Shown in pieces: positions 1 through 48,676 of a stretch of 64,000 bases of DNA. Origin of the DNA: Methylocystis sp. (lineage in GTDB: Bacteria; Pseudomonadota; Alphaproteobacteria; Rhizobiales; Beijerinckiaceae); contig JAMBEQ010000021.1 in the NCBI GenBank assembly GCA_024506175.1, positions 8,538 to 72,537 on the forward strand. The letters are read 5' to 3'. The notes under the pieces were generated by a model that worked only from the letters and a program-made list of their open reading frames with translations, did no database searches and was not told where the DNA came from. Position 1 is the stretch's first letter; the number at the start of each line of letters is the position of its first letter. A program made the translations under genes and the position numbers.

Positions 1-107
1 TCCTCAGATTTTACTTGGCGCAGCGCTTATGCATTATCGAAACGACCGAAAGCGGCGCTGGTACCGCCGCTCTCGGCCTAACCACAATGCAGCTGGGATT
101 TTGCACC

Positions 108-688: not shown

Positions 689-1032
689 CTGTCAGTGCTA
701 CTCTTAGGGGCGGAGTGCGGGGCTTCGAGCCAGACCTAACAAAGCCTCGTACAAGGCATCTTCCATCCGATCGAGGTCTCAATCAACTTGTGAAGTAAAT
801 CTAATTGGGGCAATTAATTAAGCTGATTGGACAGGTAAAAAGACTACCTTTTTGAGGGGCTGTACCTCGATTTGGCCCGAAATGGCAAATTGACAATTTA
901 CTCGGTCAACGCGGCAAATCGCTTTAGTCCATCCAATAAAAGGTAACTGTAATTGTCCTCTCCCCTTTTCGAGTTCGACGCTCGAAGCCGGCGCGCGCCG
1001 GTCTTCGAAGTGGATGAACTTAGGAGCGTATC

Positions 1033-1371
1033 ATGAAAAAATTCCTCGTGTCAGTAGCGATCGTCGCCCTTACCTCGAGTGGGGCCTTTGCGCAGACCCT
1101 GCTGCTCGGCGGGCCTGTGACGGCCAGCACCATCAACTCGGCCACCGCCTTTGCACCCCAGATTGGCGTCAACGTCGTTCCTCAGACCAACACCTCGACG
1201 CAGGTGAACGTCTCTCCGTCGGTAGCGGTCGGAGTGGCCGCCGCGGTTGGCGTCCTCGGGGCGGCAACGGCCAATGCCATCCCGGTCGCCTCGACGACGA
1301 GCACGCAAAGGGAGACCCAGATCAACTTTTCCAATGCCCAGAACCGTCTGTCGCAGGGCATCCTCTTCTGA
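1033..1371 (+). CDS. Secreted low-complexity V/A/T/S/N/Q-rich protein
   Basis: RBS AGGAG before ATG; signal peptide MKKFLVSVAIVALTSSGAFA; GC3-biased codons; homologous C-terminus at 23699-23806. Confidence 0.8.
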   Translation: MKKFLVSVAIVALTSSGAFAQTLLLGGPVTASTINSATAFAPQIGVNVVPQTNTSTQVNVSPSVAVGVAAAVGVLGAATANAIPVASTTSTQRETQINFSNAQNRLSQGILF

Positions 1372-1410
1372 GGCAAGCGGGCCTAGCGCTTAGATCGCAT
1401 CAACGAAGGA

Positions 1411-1439
1411 CCATGGCGGCGTTTTTCGCGCCGCCATGG
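1411..1439. terminator. Hairpin downstream of the secreted-protein gene
   Basis: Perfect 11-bp inverted repeat CCATGGCGGCG/CGCCGCCATGG. Confidence 0.5.
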
Positions 1440-1682
1440 ACGGCGTTAGGGCGGCAGTCCAAAAGCGTCCCCCATCTGTTATGGCCGCTTGTTACTGTTG
1501 CGCCATTTGCCCTGAAATTGACCGGGGTTTTCGAGGTCGCCGTGACGCGCTCTAGTACGTGCCGTCCAATTTGCCCGACTGTTGCATCCACGGTCGGGGC
1601 GCTGCCTCTTTTGGGCTAGCTAATCTCGCGCCCCATCCCGCTCGCGCGATACTGCGACTAATCCGGGCGGGCATGCCCGAGG

Positions 1683-3231: not shown

Positions 3232-3807
3232 TTAAATGATCCGCCCGTAATTACACAGCTCATTCGCAGTCTTTGGGAGACCCTGCCGGTCCAACGCGAC
3301 AATATATTCTTCCGCGGTCACCAAGGGGTTCTTGAGCCGCGCGCGGCATCGCTGTGCGGCGATGATGACCGAAGCATTGTCGAGGCCAAACTGATAATGA
3401 ACGAAGTCGTCCGGGTGCAGTAGCTCGACATTGAACTACGCGAGATAATCGCCGGGAAAATCTTTCTGATTGAATGTGACGATCGCGTCGCATTCGGAAG
3501 CAATTGCCGCGGCCAGCACATGCCGGTCGTCTGGGTCTGGCAGCCTCAGGCCCTCAATCAGGTCCTCGTAGCCCGAGACGTTGGCGTCAGGGACGGCCTT
3601 GTTCATGAGGGTCTTGGTCCGCTCCAGCCGTTCTCGGGTCAGATCGGTCCGGTTTTCGAGGAGGTTTCTCATCCACTCGTCATGGACCGCGTCGGACCAC
3701 TTGGCGCGAAACAGCTTTGCCGCCGCGAGCTCCATGAGCAGGTCTCGCAGCGGCGCAGGGTAGAGGACACATGCGTCAAGAAAAACAGTGTATGGGGATG
3801 TTTTAAT
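3232..3807 (-). pseudogene. PIN-domain (VapC-like) toxin, disrupted
   Basis: Motifs FLDACVLYP, LPDPDDRHVLAAAI, IVTFNQKDFP; in-frame TAG at 3436-3438, after which the same frame continues FNVELLHPDDF...GLPKTANEL to TAA at 3232; no ATG/GTG/TTG upstream of the first Asp motif. Confidence 0.85.
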
Positions 3808-4252
3808 AGCCGAACCCCAGCTCTTGGGCTTCCGCCGCTAACTCCTCCATGGCCTTCTGGCGTTCGGCTTCGGCAGCCAACCGATAAGCTTCCAAGTCTG
3901 AAAACTTAATGCGGCGGTGTGTACCTACCTTGTTAAACTTGATCTTCCCCTCTTCGAGCAGCTTCACGAGATGGGGTCGCGACACATTCAATAGGTCTGC
4001 AGCTTCCTGTGTAGTGAGCTCGGCGTGAATAGGGATAATCGTGACGGCGTTGCCGATCGCCATCTCTTTGAGGATATGATGCAGCAGGTCGGCAGCGGCT
4101 TTTGGCAGGCGCAATACTTTCCCGTCGTCAAATTGCACCTGTAGTTCGTCGCCTGTGCGTTGCCGGTGACGAGACAGCTCTCTGCTCGCCTCCACGGCTA
4201 GCTCGGCGTCTTCCTGTGACGGCAGCACAGGACGGTCGAGCGTCGCGGTCAT
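3803..4252 (-). CDS. Excisionase-family (Xis/MerR-like) HTH protein, putative antitoxin of the PIN toxin
   Basis: ELTTQEAADLLNVSRPHLVKLLEEGKI...VGTHRRI motif; directly upstream of PIN; RBS GAGGAAGAG. Confidence 0.9.
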   Translation of the reverse strand: MTATLDRPVLPSQEDAELAVEASRELSRHRQRTGDELQVQFDDGKVLRLPKAAADLLHHILKEMAIGNAVTIIPIHAELTTQEAADLLNVSRPHLVKLLEEGKIKFNKVGTHRRIKFSDLEAYRLAAEAERQKAMEELAAEAQELGFGY

Positions 4253-5230: not shown

Positions 5231-5305
<75 letters not shown>

Positions 5306-22547: not shown

Positions 22548-22814
22548 TTACTCTGCGGCCTCTACGGCCGGAATGACCGATACGCTGGCGCGGTTACGGC
22601 CGGATTTGAATTCCACTACGCCGTCGACGAGGGCGAAGAGCGTGTGGTCCTTGCCCATGCCGATGTTGCGGCCGGGATGCCATTTGGTGCCGCGCTGACG
22701 CACGACGATATTGCCCGCGACGACGGATTCGCCGCCGAATTTCTTGACGCCGAGGCGCCGGCCGTCCGAGTCGCGGCCGTTGCGCGACGAGCCGCCCGCT
22801 TTCTTGTGAGCCAT
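22548..22814 (-). CDS. rpmA: 50S ribosomal protein L27
   Basis: [27 protein letters not shown]. Confidence 0.99.
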
Positions 22815-22873
22815 TGTCCTGCTCCGACTTGTTCCTTACGCGCGGCTCTGGGGCCGCCTGTGAATTCCGTTGT

Positions 22874-23176
22874 TTAGATCGAAAGGATCTTAACGAGCGT
22901 CAAGTCCTGGCGATGCCCGCGCTTGCGCTTGGAGTTCTGCCGCCGGCGCTTCTTGAAGGCGATCGACTTGGGGCTGCGGGCCTGCTGGACGATCTCGCCG
23001 GAAACCGACGCGCCCTCGACCGTGGGGGCGCCGACCTTGGGGGAATCGCCCCCGATCATTAGCACCTCGTCGAAGGTGATCTTGTCGCCCGGCGCGCCAT
23101 CGAGCGCCATGACCGTGATAATATCGCCAGCGGACACGCTATATTGCTTGCCGCCGGTTCTGATGACTGCGAACAT
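22874..23176 (-). CDS. rplU: 50S ribosomal protein L21
   Basis: MFAVIRTGGKQY...KRRRQNSKRKRGHRQ; RBS AGGA before ATG 23176. Confidence 0.98.
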   Translation of the reverse strand: MFAVIRTGGKQYSVSAGDIITVMALDGAPGDKITFDEVLMIGGDSPKVGAPTVEGASVSGEIVQQARSPKSIAFKKRRRQNSKRKRGHRQDLTLVKILSI

Positions 23177-23351
23177 CGTTTTTTCCTGTGTTCGAGTCCG
23201 GCTCTCGCGTTGTTGGGCGAAACGTGAATCCGAAAAGTCTGCAACTTTTTGGCGTCGCGCCTGCGGGCCGGCTTTTTGGCAGTAGGACCGGTTGTGCTTC
23301 GCTTTTCCAAAAAGAAAAACGCGGCGAGACCGCCGCGACGAAGCATTGGAT

Positions 23352-23380
23352 TGCCTAACCTGCCGGGGGGCTCGTGTCAA
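23352..23380 (-). promoter_or_regulatory. Sigma70 promoter of rplU-rpmA
   Basis: TTGACA-N17-TAGGCA. Confidence 0.6.
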
Positions 23381-23427
23381 GGCGAGGCGGCGACCGGGAG
23401 GCGCTTTCGCGTTTAAGTCCCATCGGC

Positions 23428-23545
23428 GCGGCTTCTCTCCGGGAGAGGGAGCTAGGCTGTCACTGCTGGGATCCAGCTCTCTTTCACGCTGGTCCTGAGT
23501 GCGATTTGCTACCGTCAACATAGCAGGAATCGGTGGGGGATTTTG
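23428..23545. ncRNA. Candidate structured non-coding RNA (three adjacent hairpins)
   Basis: Stems CTCTC/GAGAG (23435-23447), GGA-CCAGC/GCTGG-TCC (23469-23495), CGATTT-GCTA/TAGC-GAATCG (23502-23532); no family recognised. Confidence 0.3.
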
Positions 23546-23698
23546 ATCGCCTTTTGACGGGCGGCGCGGCTGGGGAGACGCGTCTTCCCACAGAAACCGC
23601 AAAGGAAGCTAGGGGCGAGTTGAAAGGAGCCGCGCGGCGGCGCTTCCCCCCCCCGCGCAGGCCTTCGTTACTCACTCTAAGCGCTAGGCGGTTTTGCC

Positions 23699-23950
23699 TC
23701 AGTAGACGATGCCCTGCCGCAGCGAGTTGGTGATATCGGAAATGTTGAGTTGGTTCGAGGTTTGCCTGTTCGGCGTCGAGGCGATGCCGACGGCCGTGGC
23801 CGTGGCTCGCCCCTGTAGCTTTGGATGGCGACCACCGGCGAACGGCGGCGGGAGTTCGGCGCTGCGGTTTTTTCCGGGACGAGAGATCATGCCGAGCGTA
23901 AGGCACCTTCTTATTGACGCCAGCGCGGCCGCTTCCCATCTCCGGGCCAT
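23699..23950 (-). pseudogene. Degenerate or N-terminally replaced paralog of the 1033-1371 secreted protein
   Basis: Last 35 aa align without gaps to the 1033-1371 C-terminus (16 identities by hand count); no signal peptide in frame; possible start ATG 23950 with GAGGA RBS. Confidence 0.65.
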
Positions 23951-23974
23951 GCTTCCTCGCGCCCAGGCGGCCTC

Positions 23975-24391
23975 ATGCACAATCTGACCTTGCGACCGGC
24001 GCTTCTGGCCTTGCTGCTTGCCCCGCTCGCCGCGCATGCGGAGGAGCCCCCCTCGATCATCGCGCCGGAAGGCGACCGCTTCACGCTTCAGCAGACCGAA
24101 GGCGGCTTTCTGCGCATGAACAAGGACACGGGCGCCGTCTCCTATTGCTCGGTGAAGGACGGGGTTTCCGTCTGCCGGCTCGCCGCCGACGAGCGCGCCG
24201 GGTTCGAAGCGGAGATCGAGCGGCTACGCGCGGAGAATTCGCGCCTCAAGGCCGCGAGCGCCTCCCCGCCGAAATCCGCCACGGTCCCCAACGAAGAAGA
24301 GTTCGAGAGGGCGCTCTCCTTTACCGAGCGGTTCCTGCGACGCATAATGCGTCTGTTCAAGGAGGAAGCCCCATCGGGAGGCGCTCTGTGA
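23975..24391 (+). CDS. Secreted/periplasmic coiled-coil hypothetical protein
   Basis: Signal peptide ending AHA; GFLRMNKDTGAVSYC; ERAGFEAEIERL coiled coil. Confidence 0.8.
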   Translation: MHNLTLRPALLALLLAPLAAHAEEPPSIIAPEGDRFTLQQTEGGFLRMNKDTGAVSYCSVKDGVSVCRLAADERAGFEAEIERLRAENSRLKAASASPPKSATVPNEEEFERALSFTERFLRRIMRLFKEEAPSGGAL

Positions 24392-24569
24392 GCGCATTTC
24401 GCAAAAGTTGACAGACTTTGCGATGAGCATGAGTGGCGCGCCGATGAACGACCAGGGCCCTTTCTCCAACTGGCCATATCTCGACAAGCCGGAAAAGGCG
24501 CGCTCCGAGCGCTCCTATTTGATTCTCCCCGGCGCCGCCAAAACCGAAAACACAACGGAACCCTTGCCC

Positions 24570-24851
24570 ATGGCGTCGAATAACGCGCTCGAGAATTTCC
24601 TGGGCGGCTCGCCCATAACTGTCGCCGTGCGGCTTTTCTTCATCTCGCTCGTCGTGGGCGCGCTGCTGATGTGGCTGGAGCTGCGGCCGATCGACATTTT
24701 CCACGGCGTGCAGGCCTTTTTCAACCGCATCTATGCGCTGGGCTTCGGCGCGGTGCGGGAGCTCATCAGCTATGTGCTGGCTGGCGCCGTGTTCGTGGTG
24801 CCGGCGTGGATCGCGTTGCGGCTCTTCAATATGGGGGGCGGGCGGCGTTGA
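24570..24851 (+). CDS. DUF6460-like membrane protein
   Basis: FLGGSP..V.VRL...SLVVG, GA..VVP.W; start could be upstream (24408). Confidence 0.8.
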   Translation: MASNNALENFLGGSPITVAVRLFFISLVVGALLMWLELRPIDIFHGVQAFFNRIYALGFGAVRELISYVLAGAVFVVPAWIALRLFNMGGGRR

Positions 24852-24857
24852 CGAGCG

Positions 24858-25751
24858 TCAGCGCCCGCGCCTGATCGACGAGGTCAGATCCTCCTCGTCC
24901 GCCATCGGATCATCCCGGCGCGGCGGTAGAGGCGTCTCGGGAACGTTGACCGGGCCAAGGCTGTCTGCGCCCTCGAAAGCCGCCGCGGGCGGCCGGCCGG
25001 TCGTGTCATTATCCGTCTCCTCGCCCAGAACCGGCCGCGCATTCTGCATGGCCACGAGCGGGGATTGGTCGGGCGGCGGCGTCTCCTGCGGCTCGGGCTT
25101 GCAGATCGTGCGGCCCGAGCGCCCATGCTGCGCCAGATCGACGTGAATGTGGTCGTAGTGGAAGGCGTTCGATCCCGGCGACAGCACGGTCGAGAAATGC
25201 CCACAGGAGCCGCGATGCACGTCCATCAGAAAGGCGCGCGCCTGCTCGTCGCCGCGCCACCAGTCGCGCAGAAGCGTGATCTGGCGCCCGTCCTCCAGCA
25301 CGAAGCCGCCGACGTCCAGCGCATTGCCGAAGGAATGTTCGGAGAGTTGCGCGCCGCGCTGATTGTTCATGCCACGGCAGGCGTAGGAACCCATGGAGTC
25401 GATGCGCACGACGCGCCGGCCGAAACGCGCCTGCGCCGCCGGCTGCACCGTGTCGGCGACCCAGGACTCGAGCTCCGCGACCATCGGGCAATCGAGCGTC
25501 GCCGTCGAGTTGAAGGAGACCGATCCGCCCTGTAGCGCGGTCACCTTGAAGGGCTTGGTGAGCCCGCAAATGCCGGGGCCCTCGAGTTCATTGGCGAGCG
25601 CGATCCATTCGGAGGGCTGGACCCGCCGCTGCGCGATGCAGGCGTTCTCGGCCTGCGTGCGCCAAGCCGGCCGCTGCGGCCTGAAGGGCGCCGAGCACCC
25701 AGCGAGCGTCGCGGCGAGCGTCAGAAGGAGGAGTATCGCGCGGCGGATCAT
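24858..25751 (-). CDS. Extensin-like family lipoprotein
   Basis: Lipobox LAGC; GSYACR, SEHSFGNALDVGGF, FSTVLSPG.NAFHYDHIHVDL. Confidence 0.9.
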   Translation of the reverse strand: MIRRAILLLLTLAATLAGCSAPFRPQRPAWRTQAENACIAQRRVQPSEWIALANELEGPGICGLTKPFKVTALQGGSVSFNSTATLDCPMVAELESWVADTVQPAAQARFGRRVVRIDSMGSYACRGMNNQRGAQLSEHSFGNALDVGGFVLEDGRQITLLRDWWRGDEQARAFLMDVHRGSCGHFSTVLSPGSNAFHYDHIHVDLAQHGRSGRTICKPEPQETPPPDQSPLVAMQNARPVLGEETDNDTTGRPPAAAFEGADSLGPVNVPETPLPPRRDDPMADEEDLTSSIRRGR

Positions 25752-25885
25752 GCCGCGAAGCGTTACCCACGCTCCGTTAACCGGGCGTCGAAAAGTTTAG
25801 TTAACGGAGTAATATTCCAGGCGTGTTGCGAGGCTGCCCCAAAAGGCCGCGGCCGGCGCTATAGCCGGCCGCGGTTTGGGCGCGC

Positions 25886-45880: not shown

Positions 45881-48676
45881 ATGCAGCTCGACGCAGAGGG
45901 CAGGGAAGGACCGGCAAAGGTCCCGGCCGGGCCGGAAGGCAAGTCCGAACAGCCGCTGAGCGAGGATATCCGCCTCCTCGGGCGCCTGCTCGGCGACGCC
46001 GTGCGCGAGCACGAGGGCGTCGAGGCTTTCGAGCGCATCGAAACCATTCGCCGCCTGTCCGTCGCGGCCACCCGCAACAAGGACGAGGACGCCGCCGCAA
46101 AGCTCGACGCGCTATTGCGCTCGCTGACCGCCAAGGAGGCGACGGCGGTCATCCGCGCCTTCAGCTATTTCTCCCACCTCGCGAACATCGCCGAGGATTT
46201 GCATCCGCTGAAAGAGCGCGCCCGCGCGCTCGGGGACGGCAAGACGCTCGACGAGCCGAGCCTCGCGCGCTCCTTCACGCATCTGCGCAAGGCGGCGGTC
46301 GGCCCCGGCAAGATCGCCTCGGCCCTCTCGCGCGGCTGGATTTCGCCCGTCCTTACCGCCCATCCGACCGAGGTGCGGCGCAAGAGCCTGCTCGACACCG
46401 AGCGCGCGATCTTCACCCTGCTGTCCGAGCGGGAGCATTTGAAAGGAAAGGCCGAGCGCGCACAGAACGAGATGCAGCTGCGCGCCCGCGTGGCCCAGCT
46501 GTGGCAGACCGAGCTGTTGCGAGAAGCGCGCCTGACCGTGCGCGACGAGATCGAGAACACGCTGTCCTATTATCGCTCGACCTTTCTGCGCGAGATCCCA
46601 AAGCTCTACGCCGAGATCGAATCGAAGCTCGACGGCCTACGCGTGCCGCCCTTCCTGCGCACGGGCGCCTGGGTCGGCGGCGACCGCGACGGCAATCCCA
46701 ACGTCACGGCCGAGTCGCTCTCGACAGCCCTGCGCATGCAATGCGAGACGGCATTGCGCTTCTATCTCATCGAGGTGCACGAGCTCGGGGCGGAGCTGTC
46801 CATCTCGCGGCGCTACGGCGGCGCCACCAAGGCGCTCGAAGATCTCGCCGCGCGGTCGGGCGACGACAACCCGCATCGCGACAACGAGCCTTACCGCCGC
46901 GCCCTGATCGGCGTCTATTCGCGCCTCGCCGGCACGCTCGAAAAGCTCACCGGCCACCAGGCCACGCGCCACGCTTTGGCGCCGGGAGAGCCCTATGCGA
47001 ACAGCTGGGCGCTTCTCGCCGATCTCGTGACGATCGATGAGTCGCTGCGCATCCATCACAGCGAGGTCATCGCCTCTCAGCGGCTGGAGCCGCTCATTCG
47101 CGCAGTCGAGGTCTTCGGCTTTCATCTCGCCACGCTCGATTTGCGCCAAAGCTCCGACCGCCATGAAGAGACAATCGCCGAACTTCTCGCCGCCGCGCGC
47201 GTCACGGCGGCTTATGCCGGGCTCACGGCAGTCGAGAAGCAGCAGCTTCTCATGCGGCTCCTCTCAGATCCGCGCCCCGTGCGCTTGCCTGATAGAGCGT
47301 ATAGCGATCGCACGATGAGGGAGCTCGAGATTTTCGAGCGCGCCGTGGAGATGCGCCGCCTTTACGGGGATGAGGCGATACGTCACTACATCGTCAGCCA
47401 TACGGAGACGGTTAGCGACCTTCTGGAAGTGCTGCTGCTGCAGAAAGAGTGCGGCTTGATGCGCGGCACGCTCGACCCACGCGACGCGGAGGCGGTCGCC
47501 GCTGATCTCATCATCGCGCCGCTCTTCGAGACCATCGGCGACCTTCGCAACGCGGCGCCGATCATGCGCGACTTCTATGCATTGCCCGGCATTCAGCGCC
47601 TCATCGTCAATTCCGGCGCGCAGCAGGATATCATGCTGGGCTATTCGGATTCGAACAAAGACGGCGGCATTCTCACGAGCATATGGGAGCTCTATCGCGC
47701 TTCGACCGCGCTCGCGGAGTTCTTCGCGTCCATGCCCAATATCGTCATGCGCCTGTTCCATGGGCGCGGCGGCACGGTGGGACGTGGCGGCGGTCCGAGC
47801 TACGACGCGATCCTCGCCCAGCCGCCGGGCACGGTGAACGGTCAGATCCGTCTCACCGAACAGGGTGAGGTAATCGCCGCGAAATACGCCAATCCCCAGA
47901 TCGGCCATCTCAATCTGGAGCTGCTGGTCGCCGCGACGCTGGAGGCGACGCTACTCTCCCAGCATAAGGCCCCGGCGCCGGAATTCCCGGAGATCGCAGA
48001 AGAGCTGTCGCGCTCGGGCATGGCCGCATACCGTGGGCTCGTCTACGAGACCCCGGGGTTCGTAGACTATTTCTTTGCGTCGACGCCCATCACCGAGATC
48101 GCCTCGCTCAACATCGGCTCGCGCCCGGCCTCCCGCAAGCCCTCGCGCAAGATCGAGGATTTGCGCGCCATCCCCTGGAGCTTCTCCTGGGCGCAGGCGC
48201 GCGTGGCTTTGCCGGGCTGGTATGGATTCGGCTCGGCCATCGCGGGCTATCTAAGTCAGGATCACAAAGAACGCCTCGAGCTGTTGCGGCGCATGGCGGC
48301 GGAATGGCCTTTCTTCCGTTCGCTGCTCTCCAACATCGACATGATCTTGTCGAAAACGGACCTCGAGATTGCGCGCCATTACGCCGAGCTCGTCGAGGAC
48401 CGAGCCCTGGCCAAGCGTATTTTCTCGATGATCGAGGCGGAGCACGCGCGTTCGGTGGATGCGCTGACGGAGATCTTGGGCACGTCAGAGCGGCTCGCCG
48501 ACAATCCGACGCTGGCGCGCGCGATTCGGCAGCGCTTCCCCTATATCGTCCCGCTCAACTATCTGCAGGTCGAATTGATCCGCCGTCACCGCGCCGGAAT
48601 GACGGACAACGAGATTCGCGAGGGCATCCTAATGTCGATCAACGGCGTCTCGGCGGGCTTGCGCAATACCGGGTGA
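45881..48676 (+). CDS. ppc: Phosphoenolpyruvate carboxylase
   Basis: [55 protein letters not shown]. Confidence 0.99.

What the first reader, a model, noticed from the sequence alone, without database searches (positions are those of the whole stretch)
1264..1409. Protein C-terminus plus a non-coding 3' motif duplicated 22 kb away (partner 23662-23806, minus strand)
ATANAIPVASTTSTQRETQINFSNAQNRLSQGILF* (1264-1371) aligns without gaps to ATATAVGIASTPNRQTSNQLNISDITNSLRQGIVY* (23806-23699), 16/35 identical by hand count. Similarity continues past the stop: TGA-GGCAA-N4-GCCTAGCGCTTAGA-N7/6-AACGAAGG in both, each followed by a GC hairpin. A 14-nt exact non-coding match beside codons only about half conserved suggests a selected cis element (RNA processing/stability site, 3'UTR-derived sRNA, protein-binding site or recombination site) travelling with this family. 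One copy sits in a tRNA-integrated island and one in the core beside rplU. This is my best candidate for an undescribed gene-plus-element module.
Basis: partly seen in the sequence, partly recalled or inferred. Interest (0 to 1): 0.78.

Follow-up and report, generated by a model that had tools for sequence, protein, structure and literature searches.

The report
Conserved 3'UTR element of Methylocystis secreted-protein genes
The duplicated stretch is real: one copy is the 3' end of an intact gene for a small secreted protein found only in Methylocystis-type methanotrophs, the other is a 5'-truncated remnant of a paralogue. The shared non-coding motif belongs to an undescribed 3'-UTR RNA element (sequence box plus strong hairpin) carried by every family gene whose 3' flank could be read.

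Summary
Window 1258-1409(+) and 23813-23662(-) align at 72.5% over 153 nt (E=1e-17). The box GCCTAGCGCTTAGA occurs exactly twice.

Copy A (1033-1371) is an intact 112-aa gene with a signal peptide. It has no Pfam, NCBIfam, PDB or Rfam match. Copy B keeps only the last 37 codons, the stop and the 3' element, with no signal peptide or 5' module. A second assembly shows a 19-nt indel exactly at its 5' edge, so B is a truncated relic.

The family is tiny and Methylocystis-specific, normally sitting at tsaD-PLD-[g1]-[g2]-[g3]-gpsA. All 13 other family 3' flanks I could read carry the same 3' module. It consists of the stop, 7-10 nt, a 14-nt box (GCCTRGCGCYNRGA), about 12 nt, then a 14-bp GC hairpin with no U-tract. 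A covariance model built without window sequences ranks A (E=1e-6) and B (E=0.004) first and second in the window. G-U pairs indicate a sense-strand RNA structure.

The most likely function is to stabilise or define the mRNA 3' end, with the box as a recognition site. This is inferred, because no RNA data were reachable. Verdict: an undescribed conserved 3'UTR motif, a new member of a known kind, of moderate interest.

The parts
982..1008 (+). 5'-UTR hairpin of gene A (CGAAGCCGGCG-CGC-GCCGGTCTTCG). This is the conserved 5' module of the family.
   Evidence: In the 5'-UTR alignment A7, all 9 predicted pairs form standard pairs in 10-12 of 12 loci. There is no covariation. The L001 5'UTR plus signal-peptide DNA matches window 981-1077 at 87.6%, E=1e-20.
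1022..1026 (+). Shine-Dalgarno AGGAG within the invariant TAGGAG block, 6 nt before the ATG.
   Evidence: Invariant columns in A7.
1033..1371 (+). Gene A: an intact 112-aa small secreted protein (P0001). Its signal peptide MKKFLVSVAIVALTSSGAFA is encoded at 1033-1092.
   Evidence: ORF list. Family members are P0002-P0014. No Pfam, NCBIfam or PDB sequence match. The AlphaFold2 model is unusable, pLDDT 43.
1381..1394 (+). Conserved 3'-UTR box GCCTAGCGCTTAGA of copy A, starting 9 nt after the stop.
   Evidence: Exact match to copy B. It aligns with GCCTRGCGCYNRGA in 13 other loci.
1408..1441 (+). 3'-UTR GC-rich hairpin of copy A (CCAUGGCGGCG / CGCCGCCAUGG), with no U-tract after it.
   Evidence: MFE fold. 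Consensus structure 96.7% paired; winA supplies compensatory changes in the lower stem. No terminator-like site is called here.
23702..23812 (-). Copy B: the last 37 codons of a family paralogue (GRATATAVGIASTPNRQTSNQLNISDITNSLRQGIVY), a 5'-truncated relic. The TGA stop lies at 23701-23699.
   Evidence: tblastn finds only this stretch, with no upstream remnant in any frame. The upstream ORF has no signal peptide and overlaps the divergent gene 23975-24391. B keeps all 8 invariant or near-invariant family residues of this stretch.
23676..23689 (-). Conserved 3'-UTR box GCCTAGCGCTTAGA of copy B.
23623..23666 (-). Degenerate 3'-UTR hairpin of copy B, with a G9 run in the 5' arm and loop. Its folding energy is not better than shuffles (z=-0.54).
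   Evidence: The model built without window sequences scores B at 21.6 bits, E=0.004.
23809..23827 (.). A 19-nt stretch absent from the second assembly of the same population. It lies exactly at the 5' edge of the homology.
   Evidence: read laying on run X1. The length is not a multiple of 3, so the long ORF 23699-24037 is not conserved as a reading frame.

Best explanation
SHOWN. Copy A is the 3' end of an intact gene for a small secreted protein of about 90 mature residues. The protein is rich in T, S, N, G and A, nearly free of charged residues, and ends in Y or F. It belongs to a tiny family found so far only in Methylocystis and Methylocystis-like metagenome bins.

Family genes have a mosaic conservation pattern. 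A 5'-UTR hairpin plus Shine-Dalgarno block, the signal peptide and a roughly 70-nt 3'-UTR module are conserved. The mature coding part evolves fast.

The 3' module consists of:
- the stop codon, then 7-10 nt;
- a 14-nt box, GCCTRGCGCYNRGA;
- about 12 nt (YUGCG..GAA);
- a 14-bp GC-rich hairpin (GGACUGYGGCGGCG / CGCCGCCRCAGUCC) that lacks a U-tract.

Copy B is what remains of another paralogue after loss of everything 5' of its last 37 codons. It was preserved in a relic that was a working gene for most of its divergence from A.

INFERRED. The module acts in the sense mRNA. The hairpin would define or protect the 3' end, as a barrier to 3'-exonucleases and perhaps a partial transcription stop. 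This would let the mRNA of an abundantly made secreted protein accumulate independently of what lies downstream. The sequence-conserved box just ahead of the hairpin would be a recognition site for a trans-acting factor (a ribonuclease, an RNA-binding protein or an sRNA).

My confidence that B is a relic and that the element is family-wide is about 0.9. My confidence in the stabiliser or 3'-end mechanism is about 0.45.
For: Homology and family:
- The A/B homology is significant.
- Family members were found by word-based and exhaustive profile searches. The source names say Methylocystis sp. MJC1, M. iwaonis and a Methylocystis MAG.
- The canonical locus is tsaD-PLD-g1-g2-g3-gpsA.

The 3' module:
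- It is present in all 13 other 3' flanks read, and in both window copies.
- Mean pairwise identity by region, against a shuffled baseline of 0.60: signal peptide 0.82, 3' module 0.78, mature part 0.69, further downstream 0.62.
- The hairpin is 96.7% paired, with 4 pairs showing changes on both sides. It contains many G-U pairs (UG 9 of 15 at columns 47-70, GU 4 of 15 at 41-76) that would be A-C mismatches on the other strand.
- The leave-out model R2 ranks A first (37.4 bits, E=1e-6) and B second (21.6 bits, E=0.004) in the 64-kb window.
- No further copy occurs in about 132 kb of window plus flanks, so it is not a dispersed repeat.

Not simply a terminator:
- There is no T-run after the hairpin.
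- In L004, g1 has a separate canonical terminator 14 nt beyond the hairpin.
- The g2 hairpin lies between g2 and g3 with no terminator before g3.

Relic status of B:
- No signal peptide, no 5' module and no upstream remnants.
- A degenerate hairpin.
- A 19-nt indel at its edge in a second assembly.
- All 8 invariant or near-invariant family residues of the stretch are retained.

The source metagenome:
- It holds further paralogues. Depth over 959-1439 is 4-8 times that of the flanks.
- One variant differs at 19 coding positions but at only one of 39 3'-UTR positions before the hairpin.
- A B-like paralogue, 85% identical, continues upstream with family-like coding sequence and carries the box variant GGTCTAGCGCTTTGA.
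Against: - No transcript data could be reached. The window is held by only one run found, typed as probably DNA, of a sediment metagenome. Transcript 3' ends, stability and processing are therefore untested.
- Covariation in the hairpin comes from few lineages, mainly the two window copies, and the canonical copies are almost identical in sequence. This suits recognition by a factor as well as, or better than, a mere structural barrier.
- The box has no consistently conserved fold. Hairpin alpha (CCUG-GCGC-CAGG) is only 75% paired, with a C-A mismatch in 10 of 15 sequences. The MFE folds differ between copies.
- High expression of the genes is assumed, not shown.
- DNA of the closest relatives (P0002-P0004) could not be fetched. 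I could not check whether an intact gene sits upstream of rplU in relatives.
Confidence: 0.6

Rival explanations
1. The module is the body of a 3'-UTR-derived small RNA. The box would be the seed, and the hairpin the 3' structure of a roughly 60-70-nt RNA released from the mRNA by endonuclease cleavage just after the stop codon. This RNA would regulate other transcripts in trans.
For: - The architecture fits: a sequence-conserved, largely unstructured stretch of about 25 nt directly upstream of a strong 3' hairpin, conserved more than the adjacent coding sequence.
- Stem sequence is conserved beyond what structure alone needs.
- The g1 copies carry an additional canonical terminator just downstream.
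- This reading is compatible with the best explanation rather than exclusive of it.
Against: - No RNA data.
- No U-tail on the hairpin.
- No target search was possible without whole genomes.
- The box varies at 6 or more of 14 positions between paralogues, which is a lot for a seed shared by one regulon.
Confidence: 0.2
2. It is just an intrinsic terminator. The box looks conserved only because the copies are recent duplicates or are homogenised by gene conversion.
For: A GC-rich hairpin at the end of a gene is the commonest 3' feature. U-tract-poor terminators are reported in GC-rich bacteria (established knowledge, not tested here).
Against: - A and B are only 72.5% identical. The spacers between the conserved blocks are fully diverged while the blocks themselves are 30 of 30 identical.
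- The g1 and g2 3' modules follow orthologous lineages across species rather than matching within a genome. Recent conversion is therefore excluded, and the conservation spans proteins only 37-45% identical.
- There is a separate canonical terminator after g1 and none between g2 and g3.
Confidence: 0.1
3. The box is a DNA-level site, either an operator for a dimeric regulator or a recombination site. Some copies are perfect palindromes (TCCTGGCGCCAGGA).
For: - L004_1 and L012 carry a perfect 14-bp palindrome.
- The central hexamer is mostly RGCGCY.
Against: - The symmetry is not conserved. A at position 14 is invariant, but its partner is T in only 3 of 15 sequences, and positions 3/12 mismatch in 10 of 15.
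- G-U pairs favour one RNA strand.
- The fixed 7-10 nt distance from the stop codon and the linkage to the hairpin point to the transcript.
- No integron attC core (GTTRRRY) is visible.
Confidence: 0.07
4. Copy B is a silent cassette, like Neisseria pilS. It would be a promoterless 3' gene segment with a conserved 3' repeat that donates sequence to an expressed paralogue by gene conversion.
For: - Copy B is promoterless and 5'-truncated, and shares the conserved non-coding 3' repeat.
- The protein family is fast-evolving and secreted.
Against: - The longest identical tracts between A and B are 14 nt and about 11 nt, too short for homologous recombination (established knowledge on minimal pairing length).
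- B contains only the conserved C-terminus, not the variable middle.
- There is only one such fragment in 64 kb.
- Mature-region dN/dS is 0.3-0.6, which is not diversifying selection.
- B's hairpin is decaying.
Confidence: 0.03

Closest known systems
3' stabiliser or 'retroregulator' hairpins and intercistronic hairpins. Examples are the Bacillus thuringiensis cry gene 3' positive retroregulator, the Rhodobacter puf operon intercistronic hairpins and the stable papA pilin mRNA 3' end (established knowledge).
   Same: A very stable stem-loop sits just 3' of the coding sequence of a presumably abundantly made structural or secreted protein. In the g2 copies it lies between cistrons. It has no U-tract.
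   Different: Here a sequence-specific box is conserved ahead of the hairpin, and the stem sequence itself is conserved across paralogues. Classical stabilisers need only structure. Function is untested here.
3'-UTR-derived sRNAs made by processing of an mRNA. Examples are CpxQ and SroC in enterobacteria and PcrX from the puf 3'UTR in Rhodobacter (established knowledge).
   Same: A conserved single-stranded stretch plus a terminal hairpin at the end of an mRNA, conserved more than the neighbouring codons.
   Different: No U-tail, no evidence of a processed species and no known target. The element is present in several paralogous copies per genome.
Rho-independent (intrinsic) terminators.
   Same: A GC-rich hairpin downstream of a stop codon.
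   Different: There is no U-tract. A separate canonical terminator follows in the g1 copies, and there is none before g3 after the g2 copies.
Neisseria pilE/pilS system with its conserved 3' Sma/Cla repeat (established knowledge).
   Same: A 5'-truncated, promoterless gene copy shares the C-terminal coding region and a conserved non-coding 3' repeat with an expressed gene for a secreted protein.
   Different: Only 72% identity with no long identical tracts, and only one fragment. The fragment lacks the variable region. There are no signs of conversion.

Membership tests
Intrinsic (Rho-independent) terminator | GC-rich stem-loop at the 3' end of a gene | tested here: met
   A 12-14-bp GC stem in all intact copies.
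Intrinsic (Rho-independent) terminator | Run of U immediately 3' of the stem | tested here: not met
   No T-run within 0-2 nt of the stem in any copy. The consensus scans do not call it. In L004, g1 has its own canonical terminator 14 nt further on.
Intrinsic (Rho-independent) terminator | Transcripts end there | not testable with these tools
   No RNA runs were reachable.
3'-UTR-derived sRNA | Conserved, accessible seed upstream of a 3' hairpin, conserved more than the flanking sequence | tested here: met
   Box and spacer are conserved in 15 of 15 sequences. The 3' module has identity 0.78, against 0.62 downstream and 0.69 for the mature CDS. The box shows no stable conserved fold.
3'-UTR-derived sRNA | A discrete stable RNA species and trans targets | not testable with these tools
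   No transcriptome could be laid on the loci.
Dispersed intergenic repeat (REP/BIME/MITE-like) | Many copies scattered in intergenic regions, unlinked to one gene family | tested here: not met
   The model finds it only directly after family genes, in about 132 kb of window plus 10 loci. The exact motif is absent from 185,579 species genomes. Whole Methylocystis genomes could not be scanned.
Silent-cassette (pilS-like) gene-conversion system | Promoterless partial copies sharing conserved flanks with an expression locus | tested here: met
   Copy B is a 5'-truncated copy with the shared 3' module.
Silent-cassette (pilS-like) gene-conversion system | Long identical tracts flanking a variable segment, and multiple donors | tested here: not met
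   72.5% identity, and the longest exact block is 14 nt. B lacks the variable region. No other fragment occurs in the window.
Any Rfam family | Score at or above the family gathering threshold | tested here: not met
   The window gives only a tRNA. L004 gives none. The relaxed search of 900-1500 gives only chance-level hits with E>1.
Any Pfam, NCBIfam or PDB-sequence family (the protein) | Significant profile match | tested here: not met
   The AlphaFold2 model has pLDDT 43 and is not usable for fold search.

The most novel reading that the evidence does not exclude
The box-plus-hairpin module is a dedicated post-transcriptional control element. It would be either a 3'-UTR-derived sRNA or the docking site of a specific RNA-binding protein or ribonuclease. 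It would coordinate the output of a set of paralogous, fast-evolving secreted (possibly cell-surface or fibre-forming) proteins in type II methanotrophs. The duplicated GAYUGCG / GACUGYGG segments could offer two alternative partners for the same 3' arm, acting as a switch.
Probability: 0.2. Interest if true: 0.6.

Novelty: new member of a known kind. Interest (0 to 1): 0.4.

Why it matters
- It defines an uncharacterised, genus-restricted family of small secreted proteins in Methylocystis, a major group of soil and wetland methane oxidisers. The genes carry unusually well-conserved 5' and 3' untranslated regions.
- The 3' module is a clean candidate for a new cis-regulatory or sRNA-type RNA motif in a group where post-transcriptional control is almost unexplored. 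Cultured strains that carry it exist (M. iwaonis, Methylocystis sp. MJC1), so it is directly testable.
- For genome annotation, the stretch upstream of rplU in this bin should be marked as a gene remnant, not as a 112-aa ORF.

Tried and rejected
1. Chance similarity: rejected by E-values and shuffles.
2. Assembly chimera at copy B: rejected, because an independent contig spans the junction.
3. Read-through or a second ORF covering the motif: rejected by inspection. There are in-frame stops (TAG at +13 in A and B), and indels shift the frame between loci.
4. Base-pairing between the 5'UTR and the 3' box (mRNA circularisation): RNAduplex z-scores are about 0 in 10 of 12 genes, so it is rejected as a family feature.
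5. Dispersed repeat: no extra copies in about 132 kb. Weak hits at window 40-101, 25805-25881 and elsewhere are generic GC hairpins.
6. Further family genes or 5' modules in the window: none. The weak tblastn hit at 46599-46742 lies inside a 933-aa ORF.
7. Structure-based annotation of the protein: the AlphaFold2 model is unusable, so no fold search was run.
8. Collection scans:
   - Genome contigs by protein patterns and by the exact motif found nothing.
   - Metagenome contigs by protein found nothing. The signal-peptide DNA pattern gave 3 unrelated signal peptides.
9. DNA for P0001-P0003: not on record. P0004 was not queried.
10. RNA-seq: no RNA run holds the window, and loci from the look-up of encoding contigs are not accepted.
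11. Literature: one full-text search gave nothing relevant. An earlier one failed on syntax.
12. dN/dS between A and B (pN 0.35, pS 0.22 over 37 codons): too small and too codon-biased a sample to separate relaxed from diversifying selection. It was not used as evidence.

Full report
OBSERVATION

The two stretches are as described. Both read TGA-GGCAA-N4-GCCTAGCGCTTAGA-N7/6-AACGAAGG and are followed by a GC-rich hairpin. The 35-residue peptides are 16/35 identical by my own count.

blastn aligns window 1258-1409(+) with 23813-23662(-) at 72.5% identity over 153 nt (E=1e-17). tblastn of the C-terminus gives E=1.5e-6 with P0001 and about 1e-8 with its relatives. The 14-mer occurs exactly twice. 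Allowing 2 mismatches gives 3 sites against 0.48 expected.

A contig assembled independently from the source metagenome spans 22800-24484, so the junction at copy B is real.

WHAT THE TWO COPIES ARE

Copy A is the end of an intact ORF, 1033-1371. It encodes 112 aa and starts with a typical signal peptide, MKKFLVSVAIVALTSSGAFA.

Copy B is different. Only the last 37 codons, the stop and the 3' flank are homologous. tblastn finds no remnant of the rest of the gene in any frame. The ORF that runs through it (23699-24037) has an Arg-rich N-terminus without a signal peptide, and it overlaps the divergently transcribed gene 23975-24391. No 5' module lies upstream. The hairpin is degenerate, with a G9 run in the 5' arm and loop and a folding z-score of -0.54, against -2.4 to -4.3 for intact copies.

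In the second assembly of the same population, 19 nt (23809-23827) are missing exactly at the 5' edge of the homology. That length would shift the frame of the long ORF.

Copy B nevertheless keeps all eight residues that are invariant or nearly invariant in this stretch across the family. In P0001 numbering these are A80, A82, A86, T88, Q92, N98, L106 and Q108. It therefore evolved as a working gene for most of its divergence from A and was truncated later.

The source metagenome also holds a B-like paralogue. It is 85% identical over 23698-23784, continues upstream with family-like coding sequence, and carries its own box variant, GGTCTAGCGCTTTGA.

THE FAMILY

The protein has no Pfam, NCBIfam or PDB-sequence match. 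AlphaFold2 on a 14-sequence alignment gives pLDDT 43, which is unusable.

Homology searches find very few relatives:
- A word-indexed search of 5.8 billion clusters found two, P0002 and P0003; the third hit is the window's own protein.
- An exhaustive profile search of 1.84 billion representatives found three clusters.
- A search with a broader alignment found 13 significant proteins in all.

Where sources give a name, it is Methylocystis (sp. MJC1, M. iwaonis, or a Methylocystis MAG).

In those genomes the genes sit in one conserved locus: tsaD, a PLD-like gene, g1, g2, g3 (a distant 86-89-aa paralogue) and gpsA. Some genomes carry only one of g1/g2.

In the window's organism the family lies elsewhere. 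Copy A is in a lower-GC stretch with a PIN/HTH toxin-antitoxin pair next to tRNA-Thr. No integrase lies within the window.

Depth in the source metagenome is 4-8 times the flanks precisely from the 5' hairpin to the 3' hairpin (959-1439). Several variant contigs align there, including a P0003-like one. Several paralogues or strain variants therefore coexist.

THE 3' MODULE IS FAMILY-WIDE

I extracted the 3' flank of every family gene whose DNA I could fetch and whose contig reached past the stop codon. This gave 13 sequences from 10 loci, excluding the window (L013 ends 7 nt after its stop).

All of them carry the same arrangement:
- the stop codon, then 7-10 nt;
- a 14-nt box, GCCTRGCGCYNRGA;
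- about 12 nt (YUGCG..GAA);
- a 14-bp hairpin, GGACUGYGGCGGCG / CGCCGCCRCAGUCC.

This holds even though the proteins are only 37-45% identical to P0001.

Mean pairwise identity by region, with an aligner whose shuffled baseline is 0.60:

| Region | Identity |
|---|---|
| Signal peptide | 0.82 |
| 3' module | 0.78 |
| C-terminal 45 nt | 0.74 |
| 5'UTR | 0.71 |
| Mature middle | 0.69 |
| Next 110 nt downstream | 0.62 |

A covariance model built only from the 13 non-window sequences ranks copy A first (37.4 bits, E=1e-6) and copy B second (21.6 bits, E=0.004) in the 64-kb window.

The g1 and g2 modules follow orthologous lineages across species rather than resembling each other within a genome. 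The conservation thus reflects purifying selection, not recent gene conversion.

One metagenome variant of copy A differs at 19 positions in the last 98 coding nucleotides. It differs at only one of the 39 3'-UTR positions before the hairpin.

STRUCTURE AND STRAND

The large hairpin is 96.7% paired across 15 sequences. Four pairs show changes on both sides. These come mostly from the two window copies, so they represent few independent events.

It contains many G-U pairs: U-G in 9 of 15 at columns 47-70 and G-U in 4 of 15 at columns 41-76. On the opposite strand these would be A-C mismatches. The structure is therefore specific to the sense transcript and is not a DNA palindrome.

The box has no convincing conserved fold:
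- A small hairpin, CCUG-GCGC-CAGG, is 75% paired. It shows some GC/AU/GU variation at one pair but a C-A mismatch in 10 of 15 sequences.
- RNAalifold prefers a different 3-bp stem.
- Single-sequence folds disagree with one another.

I read the box as a sequence-specific, largely single-stranded site.

The 3' half of the box (GAYUGCG) repeats the lower 5' arm of the hairpin (GACUGYGG). It could pair with the same 3' arm (85% paired). This alternative is much weaker than the full hairpin, and I regard it as unexplained.

NOT SIMPLY A TERMINATOR, AND NOT A DISPERSED REPEAT

No copy has a T-run after the stem, and the consensus scans do not call it. In L004, g1 has a separate canonical terminator 14 nt beyond the family hairpin. 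The g2 hairpin lies between g2 and g3 with no terminator until after g3.

The model finds no copy other than those directly after family genes, in about 132 kb of window and flanks. The exact motif is absent from one genome each of 185,579 species. Rfam has nothing.

THE 5' SIDE

The family also shares a 5' module:
- a CTATTT element, which resembles the alphaproteobacterial -10 consensus CTATAT (my knowledge); it is not conserved in copy A;
- a near-invariant hairpin, CGAAGCCGGC...GCCGGTCTTCG (window 982-1008);
- the block TAGGAGCG just before the ATG.

The L001 5'UTR plus signal-peptide DNA matches copy A at 87.6% over 97 nt, although the proteins are only 42% identical.

Mature-region dN/dS among canonical members is 0.3-0.6, and for the signal peptide it is roughly 0.05-0.3. 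The protein is therefore fast-evolving but not under demonstrable diversifying selection.

MECHANISM

Shown:
- The module is conserved, linked to the family and specific to the sense strand.
- It sits at a fixed short distance from the stop codon.
- It is distinct from the canonical terminators.

Inferred:
- It acts in the mRNA as a 3'-end-defining or stabilising element. The hairpin would act as an exonuclease barrier or partial stop, and in g2-g3 as an intercistronic element.
- The box is a recognition site for a ribonuclease, an RNA-binding protein or an sRNA.
- Together with the 5' hairpin and strong Shine-Dalgarno sequence, this is the layout expected for a stable, heavily translated mRNA of a secreted structural protein. 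Expression was not measured.

The main rival is a 3'-UTR-derived sRNA, and it is not exclusive of this reading. DNA-site and silent-cassette readings are unlikely for the reasons given in the Rival explanations section.

LIMITS

- No transcriptome could be used.
- DNA of the nearest relatives was unavailable.
- All collection scans found nothing useful.
- Whole Methylocystis genomes could not be scanned.
- The covariation evidence rests on few lineages.

VERDICT

The 'selected cis element travelling with the family' reading is supported. The 'second module' reading of copy B is not, because B is a truncated relic. The element and the protein family appear to be undescribed. The kind of element, a conserved 3'-UTR box plus hairpin, is known. 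Interest is moderate.

Noticed in passing
window 23320-23337 (-), between copy B and the rplU start at about 23175: A canonical terminator-like hairpin with a T-run (CGCGGCGGTCTCGCCGCG TTTTTCTTTT) sits about 145 nt upstream of rplU on the same strand. It could end whatever is transcribed through the relic, or it could be a leader or attenuator of the rplU-rpmA operon. There is no Rfam hit.
   Followed up: partly
window 3436-3735 (-) and 3803-4252 (-); tRNA-Thr at 5231-5305 (-): A PIN_3-domain toxin (N-terminally short, matching profile positions 28-115) lies next to an HTH_17/excisionase-like protein, beside tRNA-Thr, in a lower-GC stretch (0.56-0.61). This looks like an accessory or island remnant. 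No integrase lies within the window.
   Followed up: partly
window 959-1439, in run X1: Contig depth is 4-8 times that of the flanks exactly over the 5' hairpin to 3' hairpin unit, and many contigs there are 85-95% identical to the window. The source community holds several paralogues or strain variants of the gene. These include a P0003-like one and one whose hairpin loop is the reverse complement (CGAAAAA vs TTTTTCG).
   Followed up: partly
L004 6476-6739, L007 6480-6740, L001 7662-7931, L003 888-1148 and others: A third small secreted-protein gene (g3, 86-89 aa, motif VNVSPxTAVAV...TINFQ) follows g2 in every canonical locus read that far. It is a distant paralogue of the family (E about 1e-9). 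P0001 resembles it in its middle part (INV..Q..VNVSP). g3 has an ordinary terminator and lacks the 3' module.
   Followed up: partly
alignment A5, columns 25-32 vs 41-48 (e.g. L012 741-748 and 753-760): The 3' half of the box (GAYUGCG) is a direct repeat of the lower 5' arm of the hairpin (GACUGYGG). It could pair with the same 3' arm in 85% of cells, and one pair shows AU and GC types. It is unclear whether this is a switch or a trace of an old duplication.
   Followed up: partly
window 23645-23653 (-): A run of nine G replaces the GGCGGCG arm and loop of the family hairpin in copy B. This is consistent with decay of the relic.
   Followed up: no
window 24858-25751 (-) and 24408-24851 (+): The neighbours of copy B are an extensin-like C-terminal domain protein (PF06904, E=1.5e-57) and a DUF6460 membrane protein. 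The divergent gene 23975-24391 encodes a signal-peptide protein with no Pfam match.
   Followed up: no
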